In this document: positions 9,474 through 24,490 of the stretch, piece by piece
How the letters are laid out: each line of letters begins with the position of its first letter
How positions within the stretch are numbered: the first letter of the stretch is position 1
Source: Escherichia coli
Lineage (GTDB): Bacteria; Pseudomonadota; Gammaproteobacteria; Enterobacterales; Enterobacteriaceae
Direction: 5' to 3' (one strand)
NCBI RefSeq assembly: GCF_011045215.1
Contig: NZ_CP049201.1
Length of the DNA stretch: 64,000 bases
Position numbers and translations under genes: made by a program
The notes under the pieces: model-generated
What the model was told of the DNA's origin: nothing
Seen by the model: the letters and a program-made list of their open reading frames with translations, nothing else
Databases searched by the model: none

Positions 9474-11745
9474 GGAAAACTCCCCAGTGTTGCAGCGATG
9501 CCAGTGCCTGCTGTTCGAGTTGTTGATGATGTGCAATGGCTTGCGGAGGATAATGCAACGGCATTTGCAGCGCTGAAACAGGAAGCTGCGCAAGCTGGTA
9601 ATGCTCAAGCACCTGATGCGCCAGTGTCCCGCGTTCTCGTGGCGGTAGCCAGGCCATCGCCGCGCGCAAATCGGGCAAGGCGTTAATAAAATCGTCGTCA
9701 CTCAGTTGATTTAAATGACTACTGAAACCGGCGATAAATGCTGGTTGGCAGGCCAATTGATGACGGGCGAGCGCCAGCAAACCGTGCAGCGCCTCGCCGG
9801 ATTGTGCCGGGGATAACTGCGCCAGCATCGTCAGCGCCGCTTCGGCACTGGCGTTGGGATGTTCCAGACGCATCAGTGCGCCAAGAGCCGCGCCGCGATC
9901 CAGCGCCGGGACATGAATCGCCTGACTGCGGCGCTCCAGTAAGGCTACCGCCGCAGAAAGAAAAACGCCGGGTAAATTAACGCCGCTATGTAGATCGCGC
10001 AGGATATGGCAAAGCGCCTGCCAGCTATGCATGTGAGCGTGAAACTCCTTTTCATCTGGTCTGCCGTTAGATTCACACAGCCACAGCGTGCGATCGATAG
10101 CCGCGCATAACGTCGTTTGTAATATCTGCGCGCCTTGCATACCGCTAATTTCATCCAGCCGCCATAAGGCATATAGCACTTCCAGCGCCTGGCCCATTTC
10201 GGCAAATTGATTTTCCTGGGCGATTAATAATGTGAGTTGCTCCAGTAATTGCTCACTAAAGCTCGCCAGGCCCGCTAACGCCGCCTGGCTTAGACATGCG
10301 GTAATGCTGCCGATTCCACCCGCGTCCAGCATATCGGCTTCTAATTTATTGCGTGCGGCTTCCTGGAGCGTGGCACCAAAGCAGGCGGCCTCAATTAATG
10401 CCGCATGCTGGCTAAGCGGCTGGGTTAATTTCCACTGTTCTTCACCGTTACCCGCAAGCGTCAGTGTACTTCCGTGCTGGCGCACAATGCCGGGAATCTC
10501 CAGTATTGCCAGCCGATGTAACACCTGACTTTGCGCTAGTCCATTGGGGTTAAAGCGATTTAAGGTAAGCTCCACCGGAAGAGAGATTGCGGTACGTTCC
10601 AGTTCGCAGGTGACATCTTTTGGCAGAGGCGGTTGTGGCGTAGAAGGGGCAAGTTTACCGAATCCGTCACCCGCTAATGTGTCTATCAACGTTAGCAGAA
10701 TCGGATCGGTGTCGGGATGAATAACTCCGCGATAGCTCCACGGCAACGGCGCGTTCAGGGCTTCTTTAATCAGCGAGCCTGCTATGGCATCCAGCCAGTC
10801 AGTGCGTAACGGTAGTTTATGTCCGCGCAACTGTGCCAGCGCCATCGCATGCAGATGAGCGGCAGCCATATCCGCGGTCGAAGCAGGCAAGTGGTGTTGG
10901 CGCAAACGGGTAAGAACCGTTTTTAGCAGTTGTTCTCCCGCCTGCTGTAAGCCCCACTGCCAGCACCAGCTTTGCCAGACCGGGGCAGGCATTCCTGAAA
11001 GGTATCCTGCCAGCACATCAAGGCGCTTTTCACTGTAGGGTGTGAGATAACAACCTGTAACGGCATCTGCCAGCGAGGGCAATTCTGGCTTGTTAATGTC
11101 CTGCGGGCATTCGCGCCACATTTTTGCCAGTGCCGGAGCGTGCCAGCCACCGCAGACGACTAACACGTCGCCATTATTTTGCTGCACCGCCCATGCAATC
11201 CAGCGAGCCATAAAGGCTTCGCGCTGACGATTGAGTGCATCGCCGGGGAAATCGCCCCGCAGTTGGGCAAAATAGTGCGCCAGTGCAGAGGGTAATGCAG
11301 TTTGCTGGCTTTCATCTTCGAACAAGTGATCCCACAGGGTATCGCTGTTATCCATGCGGGAGGCACGCAGCAGCAAGGTCTGGCTTTCCTCTTGCGTTTC
11401 AGGCGAATCGTCCTCTTCTTCACTCTGTGCCCAGCAAGGCAAATCGATGAAGTAAGTTTGTGCCTGAATACGACGAGCGGCTTGTAGCGCCTGCCACTCC
11501 GGCGAAAATTCAGCAAATGGCGTCCAGGCACCACGCCCGGGGGCTGCACCGTCCTGATACTGGCAATAACTGTAAATAGCTACCGGAAGCTGGTGGGCTA
11601 AAAACAGTTCGTCTACCCGGTCATTAAAATCAGCCGGGCCTTCAATCAACACGTATCGTGGCCGCTGGCTTTCGATTAACGATTTCACCAGCCGGGCGCA
11701 GGCCGGACTATGATGCCGGATGCCGACAATTAACGGCTCGCTCAT
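9466..11745 (-). CDS. yehM: large uncharacterised protein of the yehLMPQ cluster
   Basis: 759 aa from MSEPLIVGIRHHSP; no domain recognised by eye; tightly packed between yehL and yehP. Confidence 0.8.
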   Translation of the reverse strand: MSEPLIVGIRHHSPACARLVKSLIESQRPRYVLIEGPADFNDRVDELFLAHQLPVAIYSYCQYQDGAAPGRGAWTPFAEFSPEWQALQAARRIQAQTYFIDLPCWAQSEEEDDSPETQEESQTLLLRASRMDNSDTLWDHLFEDESQQTALPSALAHYFAQLRGDFPGDALNRQREAFMARWIAWAVQQNNGDVLVVCGGWHAPALAKMWRECPQDINKPELPSLADAVTGCYLTPYSEKRLDVLAGYLSGMPAPVWQSWCWQWGLQQAGEQLLKTVLTRLRQHHLPASTADMAAAHLHAMALAQLRGHKLPLRTDWLDAIAGSLIKEALNAPLPWSYRGVIHPDTDPILLTLIDTLAGDGFGKLAPSTPQPPLPKDVTCELERTAISLPVELTLNRFNPNGLAQSQVLHRLAILEIPGIVRQHGSTLTLAGNGEEQWKLTQPLSQHAALIEAACFGATLQEAARNKLEADMLDAGGIGSITACLSQAALAGLASFSEQLLEQLTLLIAQENQFAEMGQALEVLYALWRLDEISGMQGAQILQTTLCAAIDRTLWLCESNGRPDEKEFHAHMHSWQALCHILRDLHSGVNLPGVFLSAAVALLERRSQAIHVPALDRGAALGALMRLEHPNASAEAALTMLAQLSPAQSGEALHGLLALARHQLACQPAFIAGFSSHLNQLSDDDFINALPDLRAAMAWLPPRERGTLAHQVLEHYQLAQLPVSALQMPLHYPPQAIAHHQQLEQQALASLQHWGVFHV

Positions 11746-11755: not shown

Positions 11756-12844
11756 TCACGGCAGGCGGTGGCGGGCTTGATAATAAGCCTGCCAGTGAGC
11801 TTCTTTATGTGTGGCGACACGCTGTTCGAAGTAACGGCGCAGACGAGCGCGATCTTCTTCGTTATCTTTGACGATGGTTCCGGCAATACAGTCCACCAGG
11901 TCGGCAGGCTCCCCCGCGCGATTCGCTAAAAACCAGGCGCGGACGCCCACGGCGTGGGCCACGTTCACGGCTTCAGCGGTGGACATAATCGCTGTTAGTG
12001 TATCCATTGACGTTTTCTTTTCGCCGTTGGCACGCAGATCGCGGAAGGTGCGGACCAGTAACTCCAGTACCGCGTCAGGCACTTTATGCGGAATACCGCT
12101 ATGGGCCAGCAAACGCGCCGAAGCACTGGCGACAAGCTCCAGCTCTTGGGCGAAATCCATAATCGGAAAGACAGTTTCAAAATCGAAGCGACGCTTTAGC
12201 GCAGCACTCATTTCATTGACGCCGCGATCGCGGGTATTGGCAGTGGCAATAATATTAAAGCCTTCTCGCGCATAGAGCTGACTGGCTTCACCAGTGAGTT
12301 CCGGCACCGTCATCACCCTGTCAGAAAGCATACCTAACAGACAGTCTTGCACTTCCAGCGGTGTACGCGTTATCTCTTCAAAACGGACGATTTTGCCGTC
12401 GCGCATTCCCTGGTAAAGCGGGGCAGGGACCAGCGCTTCCGTTGATGGACCATGATTGATAAGCAGGGCGTAGTTCCAGCCGTACTTGATTTGATCTTCG
12501 GTAGTAGATGCGCCGCCCTGGATGGTTAACCCGGCATCGCCGCTAATAGAGGTTGCCAGTAATTCAGACAGGAGAGATTTTGCGGTGCCAGGTTCCCCCA
12601 CCAACATCAAACCGCGTCCGGTGGCAAGAGTGACTAACATACGTTCGACAGCGGAGGGACTAATCACCACTTTACGGCTAATATTTTGCGCGCTATCGCC
12701 AAGGATAAAAGCACGGGCCGCAGGCAAACTTAACTGCCAACCGGGCGGGCAAGGTGCGTTATCATTTTGTTTTAATTTTGCCAGTTCATCGGCGTATAAC
12801 ACAGCAGCAGGCGGACGCTGCAGATGATTATTCTGCGGTGACAT
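11756..12844 (-). CDS. yehL: MoxR-like AAA+ ATPase
   Basis: 362 aa from MSPQNNHLQRPP; Walker A GEPGTAKS, compact AAA+ core typical of MoxR/RavA-like ATPases. Confidence 0.85.
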   Translation of the reverse strand: MSPQNNHLQRPPAAVLYADELAKLKQNDNAPCPPGWQLSLPAARAFILGDSAQNISRKVVISPSAVERMLVTLATGRGLMLVGEPGTAKSLLSELLATSISGDAGLTIQGGASTTEDQIKYGWNYALLINHGPSTEALVPAPLYQGMRDGKIVRFEEITRTPLEVQDCLLGMLSDRVMTVPELTGEASQLYAREGFNIIATANTRDRGVNEMSAALKRRFDFETVFPIMDFAQELELVASASARLLAHSGIPHKVPDAVLELLVRTFRDLRANGEKKTSMDTLTAIMSTAEAVNVAHAVGVRAWFLANRAGEPADLVDCIAGTIVKDNEEDRARLRRYFEQRVATHKEAHWQAYYQARHRLP

Positions 12845-12951: not shown

Positions 12952-12990
12952 AAATAAAAAAACCTGCTGGTGAGGCAGGTTCTTTTATTT
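12952..12990. terminator. hairpin (aacctgc tggtgag gcaggtt) flanked by an A-tract and a T-tract; candidate bidirectional terminator upstream of yehL
   Basis: Seen in sequence: 7-bp stem, aaaaaaaa upstream and cttttattt downstream. Confidence 0.4.
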
Positions 12991-13276
12991 ACTATTTTCA
13001 GGCCTAACACCACAGCCTGTGCAACATCGTGTTCCAACGAACGAATTATAACCACGGCTGGACCCCGTTGCAATTAAGATAATGAGATTTATAATCCAGA
13101 CCGTTGGGACGTTGCGCCGGATCGAACCTATTTCAAGTCCTGGCTACCGGACGGGTGGTGCTGCAGGTGGTGCCCTGATCCGGAGTGCAACATCGTGGTC
13201 CAACATACGTAAACCAGTATCGACAGGCAGTGTAAGGGTAAGGTGCTGGTGTTGCGCTCCTTAATAAGGAGAGCGG

Positions 13277-13366
13277 ATGGACTCGCTGACACAAAAGTTA
13301 ACCGTGCTCATTGCTGTACTGGAGCTATTAGTAGCTCTGTTACGTTTGATTGATTTGTTGAAGTAA
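13277..13366 (+). CDS. candidate small hydrophobic protein (29 aa), unannotated as far as I can tell
   Basis: ATG preceded 6 nt upstream by AAGGAG; encodes MDSLTQKLTVLIAVLELLVALLRLIDLLK; followed by a GC hairpin; candidate promoter TTGCAA-N16-TATAAT at 13068-13095. Confidence 0.35.
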   Translation: MDSLTQKLTVLIAVLELLVALLRLIDLLK

Positions 13367-13389
13367 CGGGCAAATTGAAACGCATCTAA

Positions 13390-13415
13390 GGGGGAAAACC
13401 GCTTCCCCCTTTAAT
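13390..13415 (+). terminator. hairpin gggggaa-aaccgc-ttccccc followed by a short T-run, downstream of the small ORF
   Basis: Seen in sequence; T-tract is short (ttt) so strength is uncertain. Confidence 0.35.
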
Positions 13416-13475
13416 AAAGCTATACTCGTCATACTTCAAGTTGCATGTGCTGCGACTTGAATTATCTAGAGTATA

Positions 13476-13793
13476 TTATTCTATTTCTTGGTTGAATATA
13501 TTCTGTAGTTCACGATTAAAAATTGCTATTACAGTTTCAGGTGATTCACCTCGTAATTTCCGCTCATCAATACACTCATCTCTTATATAAATCAACGCAT
13601 CATTTATTAGCGGGTCAGCATCTTCTCGATCACGTTGATGAAATGTTGGATGTAGCCGGAATCGCTCCAGTCGATAGACGGAACCTGTAAATAATTCAGA
13701 GCATTTATGGATCTCAAGTCTGAAGGAAAACGGATCTTCAGGTACAGGGACCTCATAATCGTAAATAGCAACCAGCTCTTTTTGCACGATCAT
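13476..13793 (-). CDS. yehK: uncharacterised 105 aa protein
   Basis: 105 aa ORF (MIVQKELVAIYDYEVPVPEDPF...) in the K-12 yehK position immediately downstream of yehI. Confidence 0.75.
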   Translation of the reverse strand: MIVQKELVAIYDYEVPVPEDPFSFRLEIHKCSELFTGSVYRLERFRLHPTFHQRDREDADPLINDALIYIRDECIDERKLRGESPETVIAIFNRELQNIFNQEIE

Positions 13794-13853: not shown

Positions 13854-16800
13854 TTAATGGAAAATGACGTCAGCTGCGCTTAACGCCTCACTCAAATCAA
13901 ACACATCGAGTTCGGCAAAAGTGACGGATTTATTGTTACGGTAAACCCGAAGAGAATGGAAGCTCATCAGCGCTTTGCTATCAGCACTGTAGTGGTTAAA
14001 ACCGGGTGAAAACTTAAGGACCAGCCGGTACTCACCCAGGTCATAGACAAATGCGTCCTCATAGCCTGACTCCCAGCCTTTGTATCGCATTCCCATAAGT
14101 TGCCCAACGGTAGCGGATTTACCTTCCCAGCGAGTCAGGCTGTTACTGGTTGACTCGTCAGGTGTGAGCAGCACCGTGCGGCGCGACAACTGGCGAAAAG
14201 GCGGCATAATTTCGTAATCGGCAAAAAGCTGTGCAAATTCACTGCGCATTTCTACTGTCATTTCTAACGGGTGGGCAATGCCAATCAGAGCGTCCGCAGG
14301 CAGGTCAATTGGCTCATCTTGCGCATTGCAGAACTCCCCCTCTGCGGCCACACGAAAGGCGTTGAGTAAACAACGCGGTTCATTTGCCGGATAAACCCCC
14401 CATATTAATCGCTGGGTAACCAGACGGGTAAAGGGATGATTAACAAACAGAGAATGAAAATCTGCCAGCGACCAGCGTCGGGTGGTACGTAGGGCCGTTT
14501 CAAGACGCGGGAGCAGGTTTTTGCTCACCTGAGTGGCATCTTTTTTTAGCCCTTTTAGTTGGGCCAGTGCCTCGGGCGCTTTCAGTTGATCGTCATCGGC
14601 GCGCAACCGGGGAACGCTTTTCTGGCGAACGTTTTGCTGATCAAAGATAATCGGGTTGAGGTTTTCATCGAAGCGAACGGTAAACTGCCGGGGACCAAAA
14701 TCAAAAATCAACGCCTGCGGATCATCAAGGCCAAGGGTTGGGACTAATCTGTCCGCTAGCTCTTCCTGGCTTAGCCCGCGATTTTCTGCGACCACCTGAA
14801 GAAATTCCGCCGCGTTATCACGTAAGGGGCGGGATTTAGCCCGTTGCGATATATGATGCAGCTGTATCAGCGCCATATCATTATTCATCAGGGTAAGGAT
14901 GTTCAGGCCGCTGACAGCACGGGCAGATTTGCCTTCTTGTGGCCAGGCGAGGATCTGTGTCGTCAGATCCCGTGCCGTGCTTTCGTCACCAAAGAGACTT
15001 AACGCCAGAAATGCCCAGTTGTCTTTTGCGGGGGCACCAGCTTGTTGCCACGCAGTGAAGAGATCCCAGGCAAAAGCTGCCAGCGTTTGTGGCTGGCAGA
15101 ACGTTTTCAGTTGTTCCAGCCCGCTATAAAAACGTCCCCCCTGGGTAAAGCGCAGCATTTCGCCGAAAATTTCCAGAGCGTCATCGGTAACAGTTTGATT
15201 ATTAGTGATAAGGCGCGGCCTGGACCACATTTGCGGATGCCAGAAATCAGGGGCTTTTGGAATGCGTGCCGGGTAAATCTCTATTGGACTCTGTTTAAGT
15301 AATTGTTCCAGGGCAGGCCATAGATCTGTACGCTGCCAACGATTGGCTAAAGTTTGTAGCAATTCGCCATGCCCATGTTCGTAAAGTAAACGCAGGGCAA
15401 GTAATGCAGCTTCGCTTTTATCGCTGGATTTGGTGAAGACAAGAGGGATAAGTGCAGTAGCCGTATGTTCCGGCCAATGTAAAATCCACTGGCGAGCCAG
15501 ATTACGCTGGCCCGCAAAACGGTGCCAGACGCGGGCAATGGGCAGGGCCAGTTCTGTTGCGCCGAAATTTAAAATTAACGGAAATGTTTCTTTTGGACGA
15601 TGTGAAAAAGCCAACAGCAGACCTGGTAGCGCATCCAATCCGAGGATACTGAGAAAATAGTCCTCACCCGCGAACAGATGCTTTTTCTCATTGATACGCA
15701 GCCAGAAGGTCAAAGCTATCTCACGCGGCAACTGTGCCAATAAATACAGGTTCCAGACACTCTTTTCCGGACGATAACGTGAGTAGTTGTCATTTTCCCA
15801 TATGTTAATTAACGCTTCTACGTGACCACTGCGAAGCGCCTGTTCTGCTAATGGTGCTTCCGGGGAGTTCCAGCCATTCAGGATCTCTTCAACCCGCCCC
15901 TGGTAGTAATGCCACTCAACAATGAGTGAATTGCGTGCAGCATCCAGTTTTCCGGGGAGTATATAATTCAAAAACAGCCATACATCATCCCCAAAACCCA
16001 GTTCCTGTAATACAACTCGCCCACTTTTTTGTTCCATGCGTTCCGCAAGAGATTCCGTGCTGAAATAACGGGCAGGCTCAGTGGCGGCAAGCCTCTCTCG
16101 TTCGCCTGGTTGCCAGTAAACTTGCGGAGTTAATTCGAGCCGTGCCAAATCAAGACGTGGAGCTGTCATTTTTTTCTTACTACGCCACGGTGGTGAAACG
16201 AGGATTTCAGGCAGATTGCTGTTATCGGTGCCATCAATAACCGGTTTTGGCAGTGCCGATAAATAACTCTTCAGCACTGCCCTGGCTTGAGTACTTAACC
16301 ACGGCATCACTTCTGCTGCCAGTTGTGGCTGCGATGCCATCAGCGTTTGTAACAGCGTACGCCAGTATTCATCGCGTGCTTTTTGCTGTGCAGGCAGCTT
16401 TTTGTCTTCGATGATTGGATAACCAGGGCGGGCTGGTGGTTCTGTTAACGCCAGCAGTTCTGCCAGTGCGGCGAGCGTCGCATGGGGGAAGTTTTTATGG
16501 TATTTAGCTACACGTTGCAGGCTGGGTTTGTTTTTATCAGCCACCAGTAGCAAGGTGCGGATGACTTGCGGATGGTTAATTTGTACCAGCAGACTGCCGC
16601 AATCTTCTTTATAGGCATACATCGCGAGGCGCGGAATGGCTGCCAGTCCTTGTTCGCGCAAAAGGGCGGCGCAGGCCGCGTAGCCGAAGTGGTTTTCATG
16701 CGACATGTAGCTGGCTTCTCGATCGCTAAATATATCCTGGCTCCAGTAGTGTTCGAGTTTTCTCACCGCTGTGGGGTCATTAGCTACAACTTTTAACCAC

Positions 16801-17486
16801 TCCTTAGAATGAAAATGAGTTCGCGGGCATTCAAGGCCTACCAACTCATTGGCTATTTCTGGTTTTTCCGGGAGGATCAGCGCAATAAAAGGGCGGCGAA
16901 CTTTGGTTATTCCTGGTAGTGCGGCAATGAGTTTGTCGGCGCAACGCTGCCAGCAGCTTTCCTCTGCCAGAGAGAGGTGTTTACGCAGTCGGAGATCGAA
17001 TTCGTTATAGGTTTCTGAGCGATAACCATAGCCATAGTCCTCGTTCTGATACTGCAATGTGACTACCAGAGGATCACTCTCATAACACCGTGCAATAAAC
17101 TGGCGTGCAATCACCACCTCAGTCGCATATTCCAGCCCCTCTTGTTGGACGATTTCGTCGAGCAACTGTTGGCTGTCATTTTGCGCGATACAGGCTAGCG
17201 CCGCCATTGTCCGGGCCGGGATTGAGGGTTTGTGTTCGCCGATCAAGTTGATGGCCTGCGTGATGGCGGACTGCCACTCCAGTGAAAAATTTTCATAACG
17301 CCAGACAATGTTTTTTTTCTTCTCAGCTTTTTGTAGCAATTCATCACCCAGTGTCTGAATGATGCTTTCAGTGATAACAGGCACTGGTTCGCCCGGCCAA
17401 TTGCGATGGCTGAGTGGTGTTTTACCCTTTTTATATTTCAGTTCCAGTTGGGCGTTATCAGCCAGCCACGGTAATTCCTTGTCCAT
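13854..17486 (-). CDS. yehI: giant DUF4132-type protein, paralog of the two upstream genes but lacking the N-terminal WGR-like domain
   Basis: 1210 aa; begins at the PWLAD motif that follows the WGR domain in the paralogs; C-terminal region aligns with both upstream paralogs. Confidence 0.85.
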   Translation of the reverse strand: MDKELPWLADNAQLELKYKKGKTPLSHRNWPGEPVPVITESIIQTLGDELLQKAEKKKNIVWRYENFSLEWQSAITQAINLIGEHKPSIPARTMAALACIAQNDSQQLLDEIVQQEGLEYATEVVIARQFIARCYESDPLVVTLQYQNEDYGYGYRSETYNEFDLRLRKHLSLAEESCWQRCADKLIAALPGITKVRRPFIALILPEKPEIANELVGLECPRTHFHSKEWLKVVANDPTAVRKLEHYWSQDIFSDREASYMSHENHFGYAACAALLREQGLAAIPRLAMYAYKEDCGSLLVQINHPQVIRTLLLVADKNKPSLQRVAKYHKNFPHATLAALAELLALTEPPARPGYPIIEDKKLPAQQKARDEYWRTLLQTLMASQPQLAAEVMPWLSTQARAVLKSYLSALPKPVIDGTDNSNLPEILVSPPWRSKKKMTAPRLDLARLELTPQVYWQPGERERLAATEPARYFSTESLAERMEQKSGRVVLQELGFGDDVWLFLNYILPGKLDAARNSLIVEWHYYQGRVEEILNGWNSPEAPLAEQALRSGHVEALINIWENDNYSRYRPEKSVWNLYLLAQLPREIALTFWLRINEKKHLFAGEDYFLSILGLDALPGLLLAFSHRPKETFPLILNFGATELALPIARVWHRFAGQRNLARQWILHWPEHTATALIPLVFTKSSDKSEAALLALRLLYEHGHGELLQTLANRWQRTDLWPALEQLLKQSPIEIYPARIPKAPDFWHPQMWSRPRLITNNQTVTDDALEIFGEMLRFTQGGRFYSGLEQLKTFCQPQTLAAFAWDLFTAWQQAGAPAKDNWAFLALSLFGDESTARDLTTQILAWPQEGKSARAVSGLNILTLMNNDMALIQLHHISQRAKSRPLRDNAAEFLQVVAENRGLSQEELADRLVPTLGLDDPQALIFDFGPRQFTVRFDENLNPIIFDQQNVRQKSVPRLRADDDQLKAPEALAQLKGLKKDATQVSKNLLPRLETALRTTRRWSLADFHSLFVNHPFTRLVTQRLIWGVYPANEPRCLLNAFRVAAEGEFCNAQDEPIDLPADALIGIAHPLEMTVEMRSEFAQLFADYEIMPPFRQLSRRTVLLTPDESTSNSLTRWEGKSATVGQLMGMRYKGWESGYEDAFVYDLGEYRLVLKFSPGFNHYSADSKALMSFHSLRVYRNNKSVTFAELDVFDLSEALSAADVIFH

Positions 17487-17495
17487 GCTCTTTCC

Positions 17496-20400
17496 TTATT
17501 CAAACAGGGCTTCAATATCGTTAATTAGCTCGCTGGCGGTGATGGCATCGAGTACGGAGAACAGCGCTTCCTGTGTTGAATTACTCCCCCAGCCATAGCT
17601 TTCCGCTTTGCCTTCCCATAGCCACAGCTTGCTTAAGAGCTGCTCAGCGCTAAGTTCGGCTGGTGACATACCCACTGCAAAGCCTTCATCGATTTCCATG
17701 ATTAACGACCAGCGGCCCAGAGGTTTGATCATCCAGCCGATCCAGCCTCCATCCTGTGGTTCGCCCTTTATCCAGCCTTTATTCGCCAGCCCCATTACCC
17801 GACCGCTCGGGCATTTTCTGCCTGCCCAGCGGGTCAGTTCGCTGGCGTTGCGCTCGGCTTCTGTCAGGGCGTAACTGTTACGGTCAAGCTGGCGGAACGG
17901 TGGTAACAGTTCGTAGTCGGCAAAAAGCTGACCAAAGGCGGCAGCATCCGTCGGTGATATTTCCAGAACGTGAGGAATACCAATAGAGATATCGCCTTCC
18001 GGCAGGGTGAAAAGATCATCGTCAGCGGTGCTGTAGCTGTTATCTTCCGCTACGCGAAAGCAAGCCTGCAGCTGGTTTTCGGCGCTATAAACGCCCCAAA
18101 TCAGACGGCGGGTTAAGTGGCGAACCAGCGGATGCTCAACCAGGAAGAGCTGAAAGTTTTCCGGTGACCAGCGGCGACGCAGGCACATGGCGGATTCCAG
18201 CCTTGCTACCTGCTGGGCGGCGACGGTACGCGCATCTTTTTTCAGCAGTTTGTAGCGGTTAACAGCATCGTTCGCCTGTGATTCATCATCGCTTTTGTTT
18301 GGTTTGGGCAGGTCTTTCAGACGGCTGCCAGAAACATCACGCACAAACGGTTTTAAGGTTTCATCAAAGCTGACGGTGAACTGGCGTGAGCCGAAATCCA
18401 GCAGCAACGAACCGTTATCATCCAGACCGAGATCCGGTGCTAACCGATCTTCAAGCTCTGCCACCGTGAGTTCGCGGCTTTCGGCAATGTCGGCAATTTT
18501 TTCTTTTGCCCGCTCCTGTAATGCTTTGAATTTCAGTTTCTGGGCAATACCGTTAAGCTGCATCAGGGCGATATCACTACCGATAGCGGCGAGAATATCC
18601 AACCCAACGGTGGCGCGTTTATGCTGGGATTCACCAGGCCAGGCGCGTATTAATGGCGTCAGTTTGCGGGCGGTGTCATCGTTACCAAGAACGCCTAACG
18701 CAGTGAACGCCCAACTCTCTTTCGACGGTGCGCCCGCAGTCAGCCAGGCGGTAAACAGATCCCAGGCAAATTCAGCCAGTGAGTCGGCGGTACAGGCATC
18801 TTTCACCTGCAATAATCCCGGATACAGGGCCTCTTCCTGAGGGAAGCGGAGCATTTCACCGAGGTGCTGGAGTGCGCTATCTGGCAGTACCTTGCTGCTA
18901 TTTTTGAGTTTCGGGCGAGTCCATAATGGAGGTTGATAAAACAACGGTAAAGGGGGGATTTTCGCCGGGTATTTACCCACAGGACTGTTGTCGTTATTTT
19001 TATTTTGAGTTTCCCAGGGCGGCGAGACTAGTACCATTGGTAGAATTTCTGAGTTTGCAAAATCTTCATTGCGACTATTCAGCAATTGCTGACATTGTTG
19101 CAATAAATTTACCGCTTGCGACGATAATCCGATGACTAATTTTTCGACCAATAAAGGATTTGCATTAAGTAATGAAACCAGCAACGTATGTTTGCGTTTA
19201 TCATCTTTTTTTACCAATGCTTCGGCTAATGCCGCTATCGTGGCAGAAGGAAAATTTTCGGCACTTTTTATTAGTCGTTCATAACAGCGTTTATTAGTAT
19301 CGGCGGCTTCGATGAGTGCCGTAATGGCCAACGGATGATTAATACATTTCAGTACGTCACCGCAATTATCTTCTTCAGCATAGGGAGCCAGGCGAGCCAG
19401 TGCCGCTATACCTTGCTCCCGTAATACCGTAGCTGACCAACTGGCACCATAGGTGTTAAATACATCAATGTATTGATAGTTCTCCAGTATTTCGAGCGTG
19501 AATGGATCTGTCGCTACCAGTTTCAACATTTCAAGTTGTGGAACATCTGCGACCTGGTGTAAACGATGTACGATCTCATGGGCCACTTCGGGTATTTCTG
19601 GCATTAAAATGGCAATTAACGGTTGGCGATAGAGTGATATATCTGGTAACGCAACGAGTAATTTTGCAATGCAATTTTGCCATACTTCTTCTTCTGCTAG
19701 TGATAAATGTTTACGCAGACGTAAACTAAATTTGTCGTTATTCCTTCTATAACTGTCCTTGCTGCTATCTGCATAATTAATAAAGAAAGTCAAATGTTCA
19801 TCTTTATAGTCAAAATCGAAATCAATTTGCCACCAGAAGATGACAGTTTCAGTTGCGTATTCGATACCGAAGGTGCTTACAATTTCATCCAGCAACTCGG
19901 ATGAGGTTTCATCATTCCAGCCCTGACAAAAACATATTTCCAGAAAAGTAAGTACCGCCATAGTACGCGCGGGTATCTTAGTCTTTTGGGCCTTAATTAA
20001 GCTGATTGCCTGGCTAATCGCATCAGCCCATTCATCAGAGCATGAGCTGTAATCGAAAGTCAGATTTTTATAATAATGATAAGTACGATTTGCCAATCGG
20101 GAAATTAAATTTTGTTTCTCGGGTTTGGTTGGTTTTTTTACTGGCTCTCCCGGCCAAAGGCGGTGGCTGAGGGCATGGCGGGCAATATTCGGGGGAAGAA
20201 TAATGGGATCGTTGTCTGCCAGCCAGGGTAAACCATTAGTTGCTGCCTGGCGATTTATTGAGGCTTTTTCCTCTGTGACCAGGACTTTCTTTGCTGAGGC
20301 ATCATGTGAGTGAGCGTTAGCGTCTACTTGCTCCACATACCCCTTCTTCACCTTCTCCGCAATCAGCTTCAGTGCTGCTTTTTCCGCCGCCGCAGTATCT

Positions 20401-20528
20401 GCAAAGCTTTTTACCTGACTTTGCCCGTTGGTACCGACTTTACCCCAGTTAATATGCAGCTCGTTTCCCTGCTGCTCCACCGCCCAGAATTTATGTGATT
20501 TTTCGTCCTGATAAATATAGGTTTTCAT
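17496..20528 (-). CDS. giant WGR-domain/DUF4132-type protein, middle paralog of the tandem array
   Basis: 1010 aa; N-terminal about 65 aa near-identical to the 1269 aa paralog (MKTYIYQDEKSHKFWAVEQQGNELHINWGKVG...); conserved C-terminus ...ITASELINDIEALFE; 9 bp from the yehI start. Confidence 0.8.
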   Translation of the reverse strand: MKTYIYQDEKSHKFWAVEQQGNELHINWGKVGTNGQSQVKSFADTAAAEKAALKLIAEKVKKGYVEQVDANAHSHDASAKKVLVTEEKASINRQAATNGLPWLADNDPIILPPNIARHALSHRLWPGEPVKKPTKPEKQNLISRLANRTYHYYKNLTFDYSSCSDEWADAISQAISLIKAQKTKIPARTMAVLTFLEICFCQGWNDETSSELLDEIVSTFGIEYATETVIFWWQIDFDFDYKDEHLTFFINYADSSKDSYRRNNDKFSLRLRKHLSLAEEEVWQNCIAKLLVALPDISLYRQPLIAILMPEIPEVAHEIVHRLHQVADVPQLEMLKLVATDPFTLEILENYQYIDVFNTYGASWSATVLREQGIAALARLAPYAEEDNCGDVLKCINHPLAITALIEAADTNKRCYERLIKSAENFPSATIAALAEALVKKDDKRKHTLLVSLLNANPLLVEKLVIGLSSQAVNLLQQCQQLLNSRNEDFANSEILPMVLVSPPWETQNKNNDNSPVGKYPAKIPPLPLFYQPPLWTRPKLKNSSKVLPDSALQHLGEMLRFPQEEALYPGLLQVKDACTADSLAEFAWDLFTAWLTAGAPSKESWAFTALGVLGNDDTARKLTPLIRAWPGESQHKRATVGLDILAAIGSDIALMQLNGIAQKLKFKALQERAKEKIADIAESRELTVAELEDRLAPDLGLDDNGSLLLDFGSRQFTVSFDETLKPFVRDVSGSRLKDLPKPNKSDDESQANDAVNRYKLLKKDARTVAAQQVARLESAMCLRRRWSPENFQLFLVEHPLVRHLTRRLIWGVYSAENQLQACFRVAEDNSYSTADDDLFTLPEGDISIGIPHVLEISPTDAAAFGQLFADYELLPPFRQLDRNSYALTEAERNASELTRWAGRKCPSGRVMGLANKGWIKGEPQDGGWIGWMIKPLGRWSLIMEIDEGFAVGMSPAELSAEQLLSKLWLWEGKAESYGWGSNSTQEALFSVLDAITASELINDIEALFE

Positions 20529-20540
20529 TGTTAAATCCTT

Positions 20541-23500
20541 TTAATCAAACAGTGATTCAATGTCGTTAATCAGCTCGCTGGCGGTGATGTCGTCGAGCAT
20601 GGAGAAAGTGGGTGAGGATTGTTTACCATAGCGATCATAAGGGGCGGTGATTTTTACGCTTTCGACAGGCAGCAGGTCGCTATACCCCGTTTCGCCATAA
20701 ATTAATGAAAAAGGTTCCGTTTCAAGTTCGAGAGCACCATAAGGGGTAGATTTGCGCATCGCATAGACGCTGCCGCTTTCTTCCAGACGTTGCCAGCCTC
20801 GGCGTTCCAGCCCGACAATGCGTCCGGCCTGGCAGAGACGTCCGTTCCAGCGTGACAATTCATGGACATTACGTTCGTTATCAGCAAGGTGGTAACTACC
20901 ACGTTCGAACTGTTGGAAAGGGGGAAGCAGTTCGTAATCAACGTAAATTTGCCTGAATGCAGCGGCGGATTCAGGGGGGATTTCCAGCACATGCGGTATA
21001 CCGATGTTTCCTGCTGGCAGCGTGAATAACTCATCCTGCGCATCGCTGTAAGTGCTGTCTTCTGCCACGCGAAAACAGGTGATAAGAGCGTTTTCATCGT
21101 TATAACCCCCCCATAACAGCCGTCGGGTTAAGTGACGTACCAGCGGATGCTCCACCAGAAACAGGCGGAACTGCTCTGCCGTCCAGCGTCTGCGCTGGCA
21201 CATAGCCTGTTCCAGACGGGTAATTTGCTGGCTGGCGATAGCACGAACATCTTTTTTCAACTGTTTGAAGAGATTAACTGCGTCAGTTGCCAGTGTTTTA
21301 TCATCGCTCTGGTTTGGCTTAGGTAAATCTTTCAGGACTTTGCCGTTTGCATCGCACACTACAGGTTTTAAGGTTTCGTCAAAACCAACGGTGAATTTGC
21401 GGGGGCCGAAATCCAGTGTCAGCGAGCCACTGCTATCAAGCCCTAAATCTGGAGCCAGGCGGTCTTCCAGTTCAGCCATAGTCAGCCCACGGTTTTCAGC
21501 AACTATGTTGATTTTCTCGCGGGCATGTTCCTGTAATGCTTTGAATTTAATTTTTCGCGCGATGCCATTAAGCAGCATTAGCGCAACATCGCTGCCAATA
21601 TCAGCTAATACATCCAGCCCGGACACCGCCCGTTTATGCTGGGATTCCCCAGGCCAGGCGCGGATAAGCGGGGTTAATTTACGCGCGGTGTCGTCATTGC
21701 CTAAAATCCCAAGCGAAGTAAATGCCCAGTTTTCTTTTGCGGGTGCGCCAGCTTCTGTCCAGGCGGTATACAGATCCCAGCCAAATTCAGCCAGTGATTC
21801 GCGGGTGAAGATTTCTCTAATGATATCCAGCCCAGCGTAGGCGGTAATGTCGCGAGGAAAGCTCAGCATAGTGCCGAGGTGGCGCATAGCGTCATCTGAC
21901 AGAGGCAGGTTGTTACTTTTAAGCCGTGGTCTGCGCCACAAGGTGAACTGATAAAAGCCGGACAGTGGGGCGATTTTAGCGGGATATTCTTCCAGTGGGT
22001 CGCTATCGAACAATGTTGCCAGCGCAGCTAAAACATCAGGTTGGTTGTATCCCTGGGCGATTTCCTCAATCGTTTCTCGCTGGTTTAAATTCACCAGCAG
22101 ACGAAGCGCCTGGCGGGCACAATCACGATCTTTTCCCTGTTTGCCCAGGGCCACAGGAAGTAGCCCGGCGGCGGCATGGCGTGGGTAGTCAGTTAGCCAG
22201 TTTCGCGCATCTTCATAAGACATTTTTTTCTGTAGCTGTTGCGCCATCGGTAAGGCCAGTTCACTGACACCGAGGAAGAAGGTGAAGAAGCACAGGCGTC
22301 GTGGATTACGTTGCAGACAGGTCATAAATGCAGGTATGGCGGCGCTACCAAAAATTGCCAGAATATTTTCCTCACCAGAGTAGTTATCTTCTTTGACTAT
22401 CTGGTTAAGAAAAGAAATGGCCTGTTGACCAGGCAGGTAACAGAGGGCCATGAGATCCCAGCTTTTGTATGCATTGTTATGGTATTGCGCAAATTCAGCA
22501 TTGAGTGCTGGAAAATCGAAGCGTAGCAGGGCATCAACGGCGCTTTGTGGGGCCGGAATTTTTTCGTATATTTTCTCTCCGCTTTCCCGCCATTTTTCAA
22601 AACCAAGATGCCACAGTATTTGTTGCTCCGGTGTAAGCGGTATTAATTGTTTCTCCCAGCTTGCTTTTTTCATCGGCGGCAGGTCGGTAAACAATGTTTG
22701 TTTTGTCGCCTGCTGTTGGGCTATTTGCTGGAAGCGGGTGACAAGGTAAGTACGGGTTAGTCTTTTGGCAATCTCGGGAGTGACATCAGAAACAGAAGGA
22801 ACTGGAAGCACAGGAAGATCAAACACAGGCGTATTTTTCTTTTTCTCTTTGGTCATCCAGGGCGGCGAAACAAGCAGTTGTGGCAACATATCCGCAGTGG
22901 CGTATTCACACACTTCAGTCACAGGTTGCAGGCGACATTCAGATAAGATGCCAGCGGCTTTGGCATTCACCCAGGGAATGACGTCGCATACTAACTCTGG
23001 CGTGGCGGTAATCAGTTTGACAAGCGCTTTACGCCACTCTTTATCTTCATGTATTGCCAGCAAAGTAGCATAAGCCGCAATAGCCGCAGCGGGATGCTTT
23101 TGACTGGCCTTGCTTAAGTATTCCAGGTGCTTTTTCTTACCAATTACACCGAGGATCAGAATTTGAATCGCATCCGGGTGATTAGTTTTCCATAGCCATT
23201 TGACAAGATTTTCAGTCTCGCTGATGCGTTCGAAGAGATAAGTGGGATTGTCAGAATGGTCTTCCGTAAACTCAAGAAGTATCCGGCTTACACCGCGCAC
23301 CCCATTATTTGCCAACAACATTGCCAGATAAGCGCGAAAATTACGAAAATCACGATACAACGGTGGGAAGTCGTATTTTTCCACTGTACTCAGAGCAGTA
23401 TCATCGGTTATCACCAGTCTTAACCAGGCCATCGCCGGGACGTTTTGGTCTGCATAGCGTAGAGCTATAGCATGGGCGATATCCGGGCGTTCAGGGAGCA

Positions 23501-24350
23501 GTAACGCCGCAAAAGGTTGCCGTGCGGGGGATAGCGTCGGAATGGCGGTGAGTACTTTATCTACACAGCGTTGCCACTCATCTTCTGAAGCGAGTGAAAG
23601 ATGATGACATAGACGTTGATGCCAACTAGGTAGCGATTCTGCTTCGTGATTAGGTGGAATGATGGTGGTTACTGCGCCTTTTACTGGTTTATATTTGAGT
23701 TGAAGGGCAAAAAGGGCGATTTCAACGGCGCTTTCCAGACCACAGCGAATGACTAAGTCATCGACCAGTTCATCTGCAGAGTAAGAGTTCCAAAAACTCC
23801 AGAGCAATGCTGCATCAGATTGCGCACTCCCTGTCTGTTGATTATCCAGAATTCGCCTTTGTAACTCAGCAAAAGCCTGCTGCCAGTTTTCAGGATAAGA
23901 GCGGTAATTGTTGTCGGGATCATATGCCCTGGTGTTATCTGCAATACGCTTCCATATCTCACCGTCTTTGCGCAGATAATTGATCTCTCTGGGGCGAGAG
24001 CGATGAGGAAAAGCAAATCGGTTAATATCGTCAGTTACCGGAATAACTGCATCATCAGCCAGCCACGGGCGTTGGTTTTTACTCTCAGGGGAAGATTCAA
24101 CTTCAGGAGTGGCTTTGGTGATGGGGGAGATATGCACGTTTGCTGAAGCATTTTCCACATAGCCTTTTTTCGTTTTCTCTGCGATCAGCTTAAGCTCCGC
24201 TTTTGCCGCTGCCGCAGCATCTGCAAAACTTTTTATCTGGCTTTGCCCTTTGGTGCCAACTTTTCCCCAACTGATATGCAACTCGTTTCCCTGTTGCTCC
24301 ACCGCCCAGAATTTATGTGATTTTTCGTCCTGATAGATAAAGTGTCTCAT
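20541..24350 (-). CDS. molR: giant WGR-domain/DUF4132-type protein, intact here; K-12 counterpart is the molR pseudogene
   Basis: 1269 aa uninterrupted ORF adjacent to metG; N-terminal WGR-like domain (MRHFIYQDEKSHKFWAVEQQGNELHISWGKVG...); symbol assigned from position next to metG as I recall the K-12 map. Confidence 0.7.
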   Translation of the reverse strand: MRHFIYQDEKSHKFWAVEQQGNELHISWGKVGTKGQSQIKSFADAAAAAKAELKLIAEKTKKGYVENASANVHISPITKATPEVESSPESKNQRPWLADDAVIPVTDDINRFAFPHRSRPREINYLRKDGEIWKRIADNTRAYDPDNNYRSYPENWQQAFAELQRRILDNQQTGSAQSDAALLWSFWNSYSADELVDDLVIRCGLESAVEIALFALQLKYKPVKGAVTTIIPPNHEAESLPSWHQRLCHHLSLASEDEWQRCVDKVLTAIPTLSPARQPFAALLLPERPDIAHAIALRYADQNVPAMAWLRLVITDDTALSTVEKYDFPPLYRDFRNFRAYLAMLLANNGVRGVSRILLEFTEDHSDNPTYLFERISETENLVKWLWKTNHPDAIQILILGVIGKKKHLEYLSKASQKHPAAAIAAYATLLAIHEDKEWRKALVKLITATPELVCDVIPWVNAKAAGILSECRLQPVTEVCEYATADMLPQLLVSPPWMTKEKKKNTPVFDLPVLPVPSVSDVTPEIAKRLTRTYLVTRFQQIAQQQATKQTLFTDLPPMKKASWEKQLIPLTPEQQILWHLGFEKWRESGEKIYEKIPAPQSAVDALLRFDFPALNAEFAQYHNNAYKSWDLMALCYLPGQQAISFLNQIVKEDNYSGEENILAIFGSAAIPAFMTCLQRNPRRLCFFTFFLGVSELALPMAQQLQKKMSYEDARNWLTDYPRHAAAGLLPVALGKQGKDRDCARQALRLLVNLNQRETIEEIAQGYNQPDVLAALATLFDSDPLEEYPAKIAPLSGFYQFTLWRRPRLKSNNLPLSDDAMRHLGTMLSFPRDITAYAGLDIIREIFTRESLAEFGWDLYTAWTEAGAPAKENWAFTSLGILGNDDTARKLTPLIRAWPGESQHKRAVSGLDVLADIGSDVALMLLNGIARKIKFKALQEHAREKINIVAENRGLTMAELEDRLAPDLGLDSSGSLTLDFGPRKFTVGFDETLKPVVCDANGKVLKDLPKPNQSDDKTLATDAVNLFKQLKKDVRAIASQQITRLEQAMCQRRRWTAEQFRLFLVEHPLVRHLTRRLLWGGYNDENALITCFRVAEDSTYSDAQDELFTLPAGNIGIPHVLEIPPESAAAFRQIYVDYELLPPFQQFERGSYHLADNERNVHELSRWNGRLCQAGRIVGLERRGWQRLEESGSVYAMRKSTPYGALELETEPFSLIYGETGYSDLLPVESVKITAPYDRYGKQSSPTFSMLDDITASELINDIESLFD

Positions 24351-24449
24351 TCTGCATCCCTGTAATTTTATCCAGTTAAATGCAGATGCTACCAGTATTT
24401 ATGCGGGTTAGAGAGAGACAAAATCGCAAGAAAACAACTTTAGGAATTT

Positions 24450-24479
24450 ATAAAGAAAAGGCGCTGTCGATGCAGCGCC
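24450..24479 (-). terminator. rho-independent terminator of metG
   Basis: Minus-strand hairpin ggcgctg/cagcgcc followed by a U-rich run (plus-strand aaagaaaa), 12 nt past the metG stop. Confidence 0.5.
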
Positions 24480-24490
24480 TTGAAGGGGGA

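What the first reader, a model, noticed from the sequence alone, without database searches (positions are those of the whole stretch)
13854..24350. Intact tandem array of three giant WGR/DUF4132-type paralogs (molR-like, an extra paralog, yehI)
Three co-directional ORFs of 1269, 1010 and 1210 aa are separated by only 12 and 9 bp. The first two share an almost identical N-terminal ~65 aa module resembling the WGR nucleic-acid-binding domain known from PARP enzymes, a conserved PWLAD segment and a conserved ~350 aa C-terminal block that ends ...ITASELINDIE(A/S)LF(E/D); yehI starts exactly at the PWLAD segment and lacks the WGR module. The central regions are much more divergent, a pattern expected of a diversifying family. 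In K-12 the gene next to metG (molR) is annotated as a multi-fragment pseudogene and the historical name 'molybdate metabolism regulator' is not supported by any defined mechanism; here every copy is a clean ORF. A WGR domain fused to a huge helical body is unusual in bacteria and the function is essentially unknown.
Basis: partly seen in the sequence, partly recalled or inferred. Interest (0 to 1): 0.75.

Follow-up and report, generated by a model that had tools for sequence, protein, structure and literature searches.

The report
SOS-controlled WGR/DUF4132 gene array in E. coli
Three intact giant paralogous genes next to metG are a known, strain-variable E. coli locus of unknown function that most likely supplies interchangeable nucleic-acid-binding adaptor subunits to the neighbouring YehLMPQ ATPase machine and is switched on by DNA damage.

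Summary
Three co-directional minus-strand ORFs of 1269, 1010 and 1210 aa lie 12 and 9 bp apart. The first two carry WGR plus DUF4132; YehI carries DUF4132 only.

The locus is not new. The window is 99.9% identical to E. coli PapM-32-1, where all three genes are annotated. The gene K-12 lacks is the metG-proximal one (in 30% of 5,426 complete genomes), not the middle one. K-12 molR is the ortholog of the middle gene. Klebsiella oxytoca has the same three-gene array, so it is ancestral.

Alleles are mosaics of anciently diverged cassettes under purifying selection (dN/dS 0.12-0.29).

In 50 of 69 loci from Proteobacteria, Myxococcota, Desulfuromonadota and Actinobacteria, one to seven DUF4132 genes sit beside yehL (MoxR AAA+), yehM (DUF5682), yehP (VWA) and yehQ (SWIM). 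No sixth conserved gene was found.

A strong LexA box lies 7 nt before the first gene, conserved in E. coli and Klebsiella. Published work puts Deinococcus DUF4132 and WGR proteins in its DNA-damage regulon.

Best reading, partly inferred: damage-induced WGR/alpha-solenoid adaptors for a MoxR-VWA remodelling machine. No enzyme fold and no known defence-system match were found.

The parts
24358..24377 (-). LexA (SOS) box AACTGGATAAAATTACAGGG, 7 nt upstream of the gene1 ATG
   Evidence: Scores 17.1 bits with a PSSM built from 15 E. coli LexA boxes. It is the best site in the 64 kb window; the next best scores 11.4. The box is identical in K-12, O157, AF34 and PKF4, and conserved in K. oxytoca at 17.8 bits. 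molR is listed with a known SOS box in PMC6590174.
20541..24350 (-). gene1: WGR + alpha-solenoid + DUF4132 protein, 1269 aa, metG-proximal. K-12 lacks this paralog.
   Evidence: Ortholog of K. oxytoca gene1 (56% identity, end to end).
17496..20528 (-). gene2: short WGR + DUF4132 protein, 1010 aa. Its 3' half is of the K-12 molR type. Its 5' half is a low-GC replacement cassette, and the central ~260 aa are absent.
   Evidence: GC is 0.41-0.44 at 19000-20500. AF2 model has pLDDT 86.5. Natural short homologs exist: P0153 at 1018 aa and E. marmotae at 1010 aa.
13854..17486 (-). yehI: WGR-less DUF4132 paralog, 1210 aa. Core gene of E. coli.
   Evidence: Covers >=80% of the query in 5,222 of 5,426 genomes. 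Ortholog of K. oxytoca gene3 (60%).
13476..13793 (-). yehK: 105 aa ORF, 60 bp after yehI. Found only in Escherichia, no family match. Possibly the last gene of the array's transcript.
   Evidence: No tblastn match in any of the 69 loci from other taxa.
11756..12844 (-). yehL: MoxR-type AAA+ ATPase (AAA_5), name-giver of the YehL subfamily. Walker A is GEPGTAKS.
   Evidence: and PMC3893208. It is 56-91% identical in loci from six lineages, directly after the DUF4132 gene(s).
9466..11745 (-). yehM: DUF5682 protein, 759 aa
   Evidence: Pfam DUF5682, E 6e-99. Conserved in the operon.
8337..9473 (-). yehP: VWA protein with a MIDAS motif, DQSGS at residue 222
6337..8340 (-). yehQ: SWIM zinc-finger protein with two CxCxnCxH motifs, at residues 70 and 166
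24458..24481 (-). metG terminator hairpin. It marks the upstream boundary of the array's own promoter region.
   Evidence: with the sequence. The BglJ-RcsB-activated molR promoter and its TSS were mapped in this intergenic region (PMC3950696).

Best explanation
The three ORFs are functional paralogs that encode the multi-copy, variable subunit of a conserved five-component system. That system is DUF4132 protein(s) + YehL (MoxR AAA+ ATPase) + YehM (DUF5682) + YehP (VWA/MIDAS) + YehQ (SWIM zinc finger).

Each paralog has four parts: an optional N-terminal WGR nucleic-acid-binding domain, a disordered linker, a variable HEAT/ARM-like alpha-solenoid, and a constant ~500 aa C-terminal module that ends in a previously unsolved alpha/beta domain.

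Proposed mechanism:
1. DNA damage relieves LexA repression in E. coli and Klebsiella, and the array is expressed.
2. WGR binds DNA ends or nicks, as it does in PARPs, and the variable solenoid binds a paralog-specific partner.
3. The constant C-terminal module docks onto the shared YehP-MIDAS / YehL ring.
4. The ATPase then remodels or removes the bound nucleoprotein complex.

Shown here: the gene order and its conservation, the domains, the motifs, the LexA box, and the pattern of constant versus variable regions.

Inferred: every physical interaction, the DNA ligand, and the remodelling output.
For: Operon coupling:
- 50 of 69 loci from Gamma-, Beta- and Alphaproteobacteria, Myxococcota, Desulfuromonadota and Actinobacteria have yehL/M/P/Q homologs beside the DUF4132 gene(s). 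All are co-directional, 41 loci have all four genes, and the median gap to yehL is ~70 nt.
- In Alphaproteobacteria the DUF4132 gene lies inside the operon, as yehL-yehM-DUF4132-yehP-yehQ.
- No sixth conserved neighbour was found.

Constant and variable parts:
- The family-wide conserved stretch is gene2 residues 513-1008, with 29 invariant columns.
- E. coli alleles keep the 3' half at 92-96% nt, but the 5' halves fall into at least three cassettes that are <=71% identical.
- Purifying selection acts throughout, with dN/dS of 0.12-0.29.

Arrays are common. K. oxytoca has 3 genes, positionally orthologous to the window's, and Massilia has 5-7. The yehL-proximal copy often lacks WGR.

Motor motifs are intact: Walker A, MIDAS DxSxS and two SWIM motifs.

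Structure: WGR + solenoid + alpha/beta C-domain at pLDDT 86.5 and 93.4. WGR matches 2ra8 and, weakly (sequence E 0.66; Foldseek E 0.53), PARP chains. The family consensus keeps the WGR triad.

DNA-damage link:
- LexA box; molR is listed as a LexA-regulated gene with a known SOS box (PMC6590174).
- D. radiodurans DRA0166 (DUF4132) and DR2173 (WGR) are induced by mitomycin C in an IrrE/DdrO-dependent way (PMC8533742).

Sensor-like fusion: P0244 is HAMP/HisKA/HATPase_c + WGR + DUF4132, next to a response regulator and a MoxR gene.
Against: - No interaction, DNA binding or ATPase activity has been measured for any component.
- The LexA box is restricted to Escherichia and Klebsiella. No E. coli-type box was found upstream in Erwinia, Serratia or Betaproteobacteria. 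No class-specific LexA motifs were found in the Actinobacteria, Alphaproteobacteria, Xanthomonadales or Trichlorobacter loci (motifs recalled from memory).
- In E. coli the array is separated from yehLMPQ by yehK and a 631 bp spacer that carries zorO/orzO, so co-regulation of the two halves is unproven.
- YehI and many other family members lack WGR, so DNA-end binding cannot be obligatory.
- gene1 is absent from ~70% of E. coli genomes. K-12 and O157:H7 carry pseudogenes. The whole region is deleted in the viable strain DGF-298. The function is therefore dispensable in the laboratory.
Confidence: 0.45

Rival explanations
1. The same five-gene machine is an immune or conflict system against phages or other mobile DNA. 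The tandem, allelically diverse solenoid paralogs are a repertoire of sensors for invader proteins or DNA ends. The MoxR-VWA motor triggers or executes the response. SOS control would link it to prophage induction or to damage caused by infection.
For: - Paralog arrays of 2-7 genes, deep allelic cassettes with dS>1, presence/absence polymorphism of gene1 and recurrent pseudogenes.
- Repeat-scaffold sensors coupled to NTPases are typical of conflict systems (my own knowledge).
- A weak PADLOC WGR_XIII hit, E 0.005.
- A type I toxin-antitoxin module lies next door.
Against: - No PADLOC family matches any of the eight proteins at a meaningful score.
- yehI and yehLMPQ are core genes at a fixed site in ~96% of E. 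coli genomes, rather than patchy island cargo.
- YehL is 56-91% identical across phyla, which is unusually constrained for a defence gene.
- No copy occurs in 50,697 phage records, and only 32 of 72,556 plasmid records have one.
- No nuclease, protease or other effector fold was recognised.
- There is no sign of dN/dS>1.
Confidence: 0.2
2. A MoxR-VWA chaperone or metal-insertion system in the style of the chelatases (BchI/BchD/BchH, CobS/CobT/CobN) or of NorQ/NorD. The giant DUF4132 protein would be the large substrate-holding subunit or client. This could also explain the old 'molybdate utilisation' name.
For: - It has a three-part logic of AAA_5 ATPase + VWA + a 110-140 kDa third protein.
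- YehP gives a weak hit to the putative cobaltochelatase model TIGR02442, and YehL to GvpN/MadB-type ATPases.
- Known MoxR proteins mature dedicated protein complexes (PMC3893208).
Against: - The chelatase hit covers only the VWA domain and scores far below the cutoff (18 vs 779 bits).
- DUF4132 proteins show no similarity to CobN or BchH, or to any solved enzyme.
- WGR and SWIM domains, LexA control and multi-paralog arrays are not features of cofactor-insertion systems.
- No metalloenzyme gene is conserved next to the operon.
- In Deinococcus, molybdenum-cofactor genes did not respond together with DRA0166 (PMC8533742).
Confidence: 0.1
3. The proteins are what their legacy names say: MolR-family transcription factors that regulate molybdate metabolism, with WGR acting as the DNA-binding domain.
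For: - Legacy annotation as 'MolR family transcriptional regulator' or 'molybdate metabolism regulator'.
- WGR is described as a DNA-binding domain of MolR-like TFs in PMC7824862.
Against: - No HTH or other transcription-factor domain is present in proteins of 1,000-1,270 aa.
- YehI lacks WGR altogether.
- The K-12 gene is a pseudogene.
- The conserved partners are an ATPase, a VWA protein and a SWIM protein, not mod or moa genes.
- The original 1990 paper could not be read here.
Confidence: 0.03
4. The array is a decaying remnant with no present function. The window's strain simply has not yet accumulated disabling mutations.
For: - Pseudogenes in K-12 and O157:H7.
- gene1 is lost from ~70% of genomes.
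- The region is dispensable in DGF-298.
Against: - dN/dS is 0.12-0.29 across all three genes, between alleles with dS up to >1.
- The positionally orthologous three-gene array is retained in K. oxytoca with full-length ORFs.
- The LexA box and the tight SD-coupled junctions are conserved.
- Structure models are confident.
Confidence: 0.03

Closest known systems
MolR/YehI family (Pfam WGR PF05406 + DUF4132 PF13569), as annotated in E. coli, Shigella and Klebsiella
   Same: The domain content and genomic position between metG and yehK are the same. The window is 99.9% identical to strain PapM-32-1, where the three genes are already annotated.
   Different: Nothing essential differs. This strain combines an intact gene1 with the rarer short gene2 allele, whose 5' cassette occurs in 410 of 5,426 genomes and which is frameshifted in the O157:H7 genome examined, strain 7409.
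YehL subfamily of MoxR AAA+ ATPases with VWA partners (relatives: RavA-ViaA, CbbQ-CbbO, NorQ-NorD)
   Same: An AAA_5 ATPase gene is paired with a VWA/MIDAS gene in one operon. YehL is the founding member of the subfamily (PMC3893208).
   Different: This system also always carries DUF5682, a double-SWIM protein and one or more giant DUF4132 proteins. No client complex is known.
Class I chelatases (BchI/BchD/BchH, CobS/CobT/CobN)
   Same: The architecture of AAA+ motor, VWA adaptor and a very large third subunit is shared.
   Different: DUF4132 proteins have no detectable homology to CobN or BchH. WGR and SWIM domains and SOS control are foreign to chelatases.
WGR domain of PARP1-3 and the bacterial WGR-repeat protein Q64V53 (PDB 2ra8)
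   Same: The N-terminal ~70 aa match WGR. Pfam gives E ~1e-18, and 2ra8 gives sequence E 2e-19 and Foldseek E 6e-5. Much weaker, non-significant matches to PARP3 and PARP2 chains also appear.
   Different: There is no ADP-ribosyltransferase domain. The E. coli copies read WGK rather than WGR. DNA binding is untested.
Deinococcus radiodurans DRA0165-DRA0166 (DUF4132) and DR2173 (WGR), members of the DdrO/IrrE radiation-desiccation regulon
   Same: The domain families are the same. Induction by DNA damage parallels LexA control in E. coli (PMC8533742).
   Different: The regulator and motif are different. The paper reports WGR and DUF4132 on two different proteins, DR2173 and DRA0166. Their link to a MoxR/VWA operon was not examined here.

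Membership tests
WGR domain proteins (PF05406) | Significant match to the WGR profile at the N-terminus | tested here: met
   gene1 E 1.6e-18 and gene2 E 1.4e-18. YehI has no match, so two of the three genes qualify.
DUF4132 proteins (PF13569) | Full-length match to the DUF4132 profile near the C-terminus | tested here: met
   E 4e-49, 9e-52 and 9e-47, covering model positions 1-179, 1-179 and 3-179 of 179.
DUF4132 + YehL-YehM-YehP-YehQ five-gene system | DUF4132 gene(s) adjacent to and co-directional with MoxR AAA+, DUF5682, VWA and SWIM genes | tested here: met
   [quoted passage not shown] The same set occurs in 41-50 of 69 loci from other taxa.
DUF4132 + YehL-YehM-YehP-YehQ five-gene system | Motor and adaptor motifs intact (Walker A, MIDAS DxSxS, SWIM CxCxnCxH) | tested here: met
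   GEPGTAKS in YehL, DQSGS at residue 222 of YehP, and CSCGASGMCRH and CDCIEGTLCEH in YehQ. The Walker B reads FEE rather than DE.
DUF4132 + YehL-YehM-YehP-YehQ five-gene system | Physical complex between DUF4132 proteins and YehLMPQ | not testable with these tools
   No multimer prediction or experiment was available.
LexA (SOS) regulon | LexA box (CTG-N10-CAG type) in the promoter or leader | tested here: met
   17.1 bits, the top site in the 64 kb window. It is conserved in five E. coli variants and in K. oxytoca. molR is listed as having a known SOS box in PMC6590174.
LexA (SOS) regulon | LexA-dependent induction by DNA damage of this three-gene transcript | not testable with these tools
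   Only the literature on K-12 molR is available. No expression data exist for this strain.
Known anti-phage defence systems (PADLOC-DB v2) | Significant match of at least one component to a defence-system model | tested here: not met
   Seven of the eight proteins gave no match. Gene2 gave one marginal hit, WGR_XIII at E 0.005 and 13 bits.
PARP-like enzymes | ADP-ribosyltransferase catalytic domain next to WGR | tested here: not met
   Pfam finds only WGR and DUF4132. The fold searches show no ART domain.
MolR-type transcription regulators of molybdate metabolism (legacy name) | Recognisable transcription-factor DNA-binding domain and linkage to mod/moa genes | tested here: not met
   No HTH or other transcription-factor domain was found. 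The conserved neighbours are yehLMPQ only.
Tiki/TraB/GumN hydrolase superfamily (considered for YehM) | Profile similarity to a TraB/GumN protein | tested here: not met
   hhalign of the YehM N-terminal profile against E. coli YbaP gave probability 0.3%. A PDB profile search found nothing relevant. Only one template sequence was used, so the test is weak.

The most novel reading that the evidence does not exclude
WGR/DUF4132 proteins are a bacterial family of DNA-lesion or DNA-end sensors, using the same WGR module with which PARPs read strand breaks. They recruit a dedicated MoxR-VWA-SWIM remodelling machine, and the tandem, allelically diverse solenoid paralogs give different target specificities. 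This would be a previously unrecognised SOS-controlled repair or genome-surveillance pathway in the E. coli core genome. It could also act against invading DNA.
Probability: 0.25. Interest if true: 0.8.

Novelty: already known. Interest (0 to 1): 0.4.

Why it matters
The locus is already annotated, so the array itself is not a discovery. It does, however, sit on a long-standing gap. yehI and yehLMPQ are core E. coli genes with no known function, YehL is the only uncharacterised E. coli MoxR ATPase, and molR has been on SOS-regulon lists for 25 years under a name that explains nothing.

Three points together give a concrete, testable model and point to natural strains, such as this one, where all parts are intact, unlike K-12:
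- The giant WGR/DUF4132 paralogs are the variable first genes of a five-gene system conserved across several phyla.
- The three-gene array predates the Escherichia-Klebsiella split.
- DNA-damage control recurs in Deinococcus.

Tried and rejected
- **PADLOC and NCBIfam scans of all eight proteins.** No defence family and no informative curated family were found. The WGR region hits a Leptospira 'fibronectin-binding' model only through WGR.
- **PDB sequence searches.** Only the WGR match to 2ra8 appeared; YehI matched nothing.
- **Foldseek of the full gene2 model against PDB.** Only WGR was significant. The remaining hits were generic HEAT/ARM solenoids such as karyopherins.
- **AFDB50 search.** It returned only family members.
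- **Positive selection.** Sliding-window NG86 gave no window with dN/dS clearly above 1. YehI codons 401-500 come close to 1, but on few changes.
- **YehM as a Tiki/TraB-type hydrolase (motif recalled from memory).** This was not supported.
- **LexA control as a universal property of the system.** This was rejected. The box was found only in Escherichia and K. oxytoca.
- **A sixth conserved gene or effector near the operon.** None was found.
- **Phage or plasmid carriage.** None in phages, and rare on plasmids.
- **Literature searches.** DUF5682 returned nothing; the yehM/yehP/yehQ search returned only two papers, neither a functional study (a gene-deletion list in PMC10652928 and an unrelated hit). 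One broad search was uninformative. The 1990 molR paper is not held.

Full report
**1. The observation**

The region holds three minus-strand ORFs: 20541..24350 (1269 aa, here gene1), 17496..20528 (1010 aa, gene2) and 13854..17486 (1210 aa, yehI). They are separated by 12 and 9 bp, and each gap contains a Shine-Dalgarno-like sequence.

Pfam finds WGR plus DUF4132 in gene1 and gene2, and DUF4132 alone in YehI.

Pairwise BLASTP refines the picture:
- The conserved C-terminal block is about 500 aa. Gene1 vs gene2 is 60% identical, and gene2 vs YehI is 45%.
- The N-terminal halves are 36-40% identical.
- Gene2 is short because it lacks a ~260 aa central segment that the other two have.

**2. Where the window comes from and how common the array is**

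The 11.2 kb region is 99.9% identical to E. coli strain PapM-32-1, where the three genes are annotated as DUF4132 domain-containing proteins. They lie between metG and yehK-yehL-yehM-yehP-yehQ.

Counts among 5,426 complete E. coli genomes:

| Query | Genomes with >=80% coverage |
|---|---|
| Whole three-gene arrangement | 935 |
| gene1-type gene (87-99.9% identity) | 1,629 |
| gene2's own 5' cassette (all but 3 at >=99% identity) | 409 (410 with any match) |
| yehI | 5,222 |
| yehLMPQ | 5,202 |

Gene2's 5' cassette is low in GC, at 0.41-0.44. yehI and yehLMPQ are therefore core genes, while gene1 and the gene2 allele are variable.

State of the genes in other strains:
- K-12 has a two-gene form with a frameshifted, stop-containing molR.
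- In the O157:H7 genome examined (strain 7409), both gene1 and gene2 are pseudogenes.
- Strains such as AF34 and PKF4 have three full-length genes, of 1265 + 1264/1253 + 1210 aa.

The middle gene is therefore not an artefact.

**3. Which gene is 'extra'**

K-12 molR aligns over its whole length (92% nt) with the middle gene of AF34. It shares its 3' 1.48 kb with the window's gene2 at 94-96% identity. It matches gene1 only in the 197 nt WGR-coding start and at ~70% in part of the DUF4132 region.

Klebsiella oxytoca carries the same three-gene array with positional orthology:
- Its gene1 is 56% identical to the window's gene1.
- Its gene2 is 60-64% identical to E. coli gene2 alleles, and 78% to the window gene2's C-terminal half.
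- Its gene3 is 60% identical to YehI, and likewise starts at PPWLAD without WGR.

The three-gene array is therefore ancestral to Escherichia and Klebsiella. K-12 has lost gene1. The window's peculiarity is a shorter, replaced 5' half in gene2. Natural short forms exist elsewhere: a 1018 aa metagenomic homolog that aligns over residues 4-1008, and a 1010 aa E. marmotae protein.

**4. Kind of diversity**

Nei-Gojobori estimates between alleles give dN/dS of 0.12-0.29 for all three genes. The divergent cassettes have saturated dS above 1, while the flanking parts have dS of 0.05-0.3.

This is a recombinational mosaic of old allelic lineages under purifying selection, not rapid point-mutational diversification. 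The 3' half, which is the constant module, is the part kept at 92-96% nt identity among gene2 alleles.

**5. The family and its conserved context**

A full HMMER scan finds 9,346 50%-identity clusters at E<=1e-3 and 2,621 at E<=1e-30. The common core is gene2 residues ~513-1008. In a 29-member alignment, 29 columns are invariant and 24 members carry WGR.

A scan of one genome per species returned 69 loci. tblastn with the window's proteins shows:
- 50 loci have at least one of yehL/M/P/Q, and 41 have all four. All are co-directional, and the median gap from the DUF4132 gene to yehL is ~70 nt.
- The taxa include Klebsiella, Erwinia, Serratia, Variovorax, Acidovorax, Massilia, Cupriavidus, Burkholderia, Stenotrophomonas, Trichlorobacter, myxobacteria, Neorhizobium, Aureimonas, Mycolicibacterium and a Propionibacteriaceae MAG.
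- In the alphaproteobacterial loci the DUF4132 gene lies between yehM and yehP.
- Arrays of paralogs are frequent: 3 in K. oxytoca, 2-3 in Rhodoferax and Duganella, and 5-7 in Massilia. The yehL-proximal copy often lacks WGR.
- The 19 loci without LMPQ are mostly extra Massilia copies, short contigs or myxobacterial orphans.

Clustering all other flanking ORFs found no further widely conserved neighbour.

The partner proteins:
- YehL is the name-giving member of one of the seven MoxR AAA+ subfamilies and is uncharacterised (PMC3893208).
- Its Walker A motif, the YehP MIDAS motif and two YehQ SWIM motifs are intact.
- YehM is DUF5682.

**6. Structure**

An AlphaFold2 model of gene2 (pLDDT 86.5) shows four regions:
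- a WGR domain (residues 1-69);
- a disordered linker (70-98);
- a long alpha-solenoid (about 100-700);
- an alpha/beta C-terminal domain (about 700-1010).

Foldseek against the PDB gives only the WGR match (2ra8) as significant. Everything else is generic HEAT/ARM-like repeats.

**7. Regulation and the DNA-damage link**

Seven nucleotides upstream of the gene1 ATG lies AACTGGATAAAATTACAGGG. A PSSM built from 15 E. coli LexA boxes (recalled from memory) scores it at 17.1 bits. That falls inside the range of the training sites (13.3-26.5) and is by far the best score in the 64 kb window.

The box is identical in K-12, O157, AF34 and PKF4. It is conserved at the same position in K. oxytoca, at 17.8 bits, the best site in that locus.

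Published findings:
- An SOS review lists molR among genes with a known SOS box (PMC6590174).
- The same intergenic region holds a mapped BglJ-RcsB-activated promoter (PMC3950696).
- In Deinococcus radiodurans, DRA0166 (DUF4132) and DR2173 (WGR) carry DdrO motifs, and mitomycin C induces them in an IrrE-dependent manner (PMC8533742).

The link is not universal. No LexA-type motif was found upstream of the operon in Erwinia, Serratia, Betaproteobacteria, Xanthomonadales, Alphaproteobacteria, Actinobacteria or Trichlorobacter.

**8. Interpretation**

The gene-order evidence strongly supports one claim: DUF4132 proteins are subunits, clients or adaptors of the YehLMPQ machine. The constant C-terminal module is the obvious candidate for the part that contacts the shared partners. 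The variable solenoid and the optional WGR domain are candidates for specificity.

By analogy with characterised MoxR-VWA pairs, which remodel dedicated complexes through a MIDAS contact, and with the PARP WGR domain, which reads DNA breaks, the most likely mechanism is this: damage-induced adaptors bring the ATPase to DNA-associated targets. A histidine-kinase fusion of the whole WGR-DUF4132 protein, found next to a response regulator and a MoxR gene, fits a sensor role.

An immune role for the same machine remains possible, because of the arrays, the allelic cassettes and the pseudogenes. Several observations count against it:
- the core-genome status of yehI and yehLMPQ;
- the very high conservation of YehL;
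- the absence of any PADLOC match;
- the absence from phages and rarity on plasmids.

A chelatase-like cofactor role and the legacy 'molybdate regulator' role have little support. The region is dispensable in the laboratory (PMC10652928).

**9. Verdict**

The finding is real and correctly located, but it describes a locus that is already annotated in public genomes. Its domains define the Pfam families concerned, and its first gene has long been listed in the SOS regulon. What remains unknown is the function. The analysis here narrows that to a testable five-component model.

Noticed in passing
window 12845-13475 (zorO ORF 13277-13366 +; OrzO-P RNA 12956-13031 -): The yehK-yehL spacer is 631 bp, against ~0.3 kb in K-12. 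It carries one copy of the zorO/orzO type I toxin-antitoxin module. The 29-aa ORF is MDSLTQKLTVLIAVLELLVALLRLIDLLK, and Rfam OrzO-P matches at 99.9 bits. Fozo et al. 2010 described this family between yehI and yehL in O157:H7.
   Followed up: yes
window 18975-20325 (5' half of gene2): This segment has low GC (0.41-0.44, against ~0.50 in the flanks). It is present in only 410 of 5,426 E. coli genomes, and in all but 3 of them at >=99% identity. That looks like a recently spread replacement cassette. Its donor lineage was not traced.
   Followed up: partly
yehI codons ~401-500 (window about 15990-16290): This is the only 100-codon window where dN approaches dS between alleles (0.06/0.09 to 0.07/0.06). 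The counts are small and no formal test was run.
   Followed up: no
L028, L033, L011, L031, L066 (Massilia spp.): Tandem arrays of five to seven WGR/DUF4132 paralogs lie upstream of a single yehL. The same genomes also carry several orphan copies elsewhere. This is an extreme expansion of the family.
   Followed up: partly
L007 6883-12213 (protein P0244, 1776 aa, metagenome): A WGR + DUF4132 protein is fused to HAMP/HisKA/HATPase_c histidine-kinase domains. A response-regulator gene precedes it, and a MoxR (AAA_5) gene follows.
   Followed up: partly
window 13476-13793 (yehK): yehK (105 aa) matches no family and has no homolog in any of the 69 loci from other taxa. It appears to be an Escherichia-specific addition between the array and yehL.
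   Followed up: partly
window 51734-51819 (-), 35393-35489 (+), 43344-43414 (+): Rfam gathering-level matches to CyaR/RyeE sRNA, a TPP riboswitch upstream of thiM, and naRNA4. These are ordinary E. coli features.
   Followed up: no
window 9466-10300 (YehM N-terminus): Invariant motifs GxRHHSP...VLIEGP...RExxM...VVCGGxH recall the Tiki/TraB/GumN hydrolase pattern. Neither a PDB profile search nor hhalign against E. coli YbaP supported the link. Structure prediction of YehM would settle it.
   Followed up: partly
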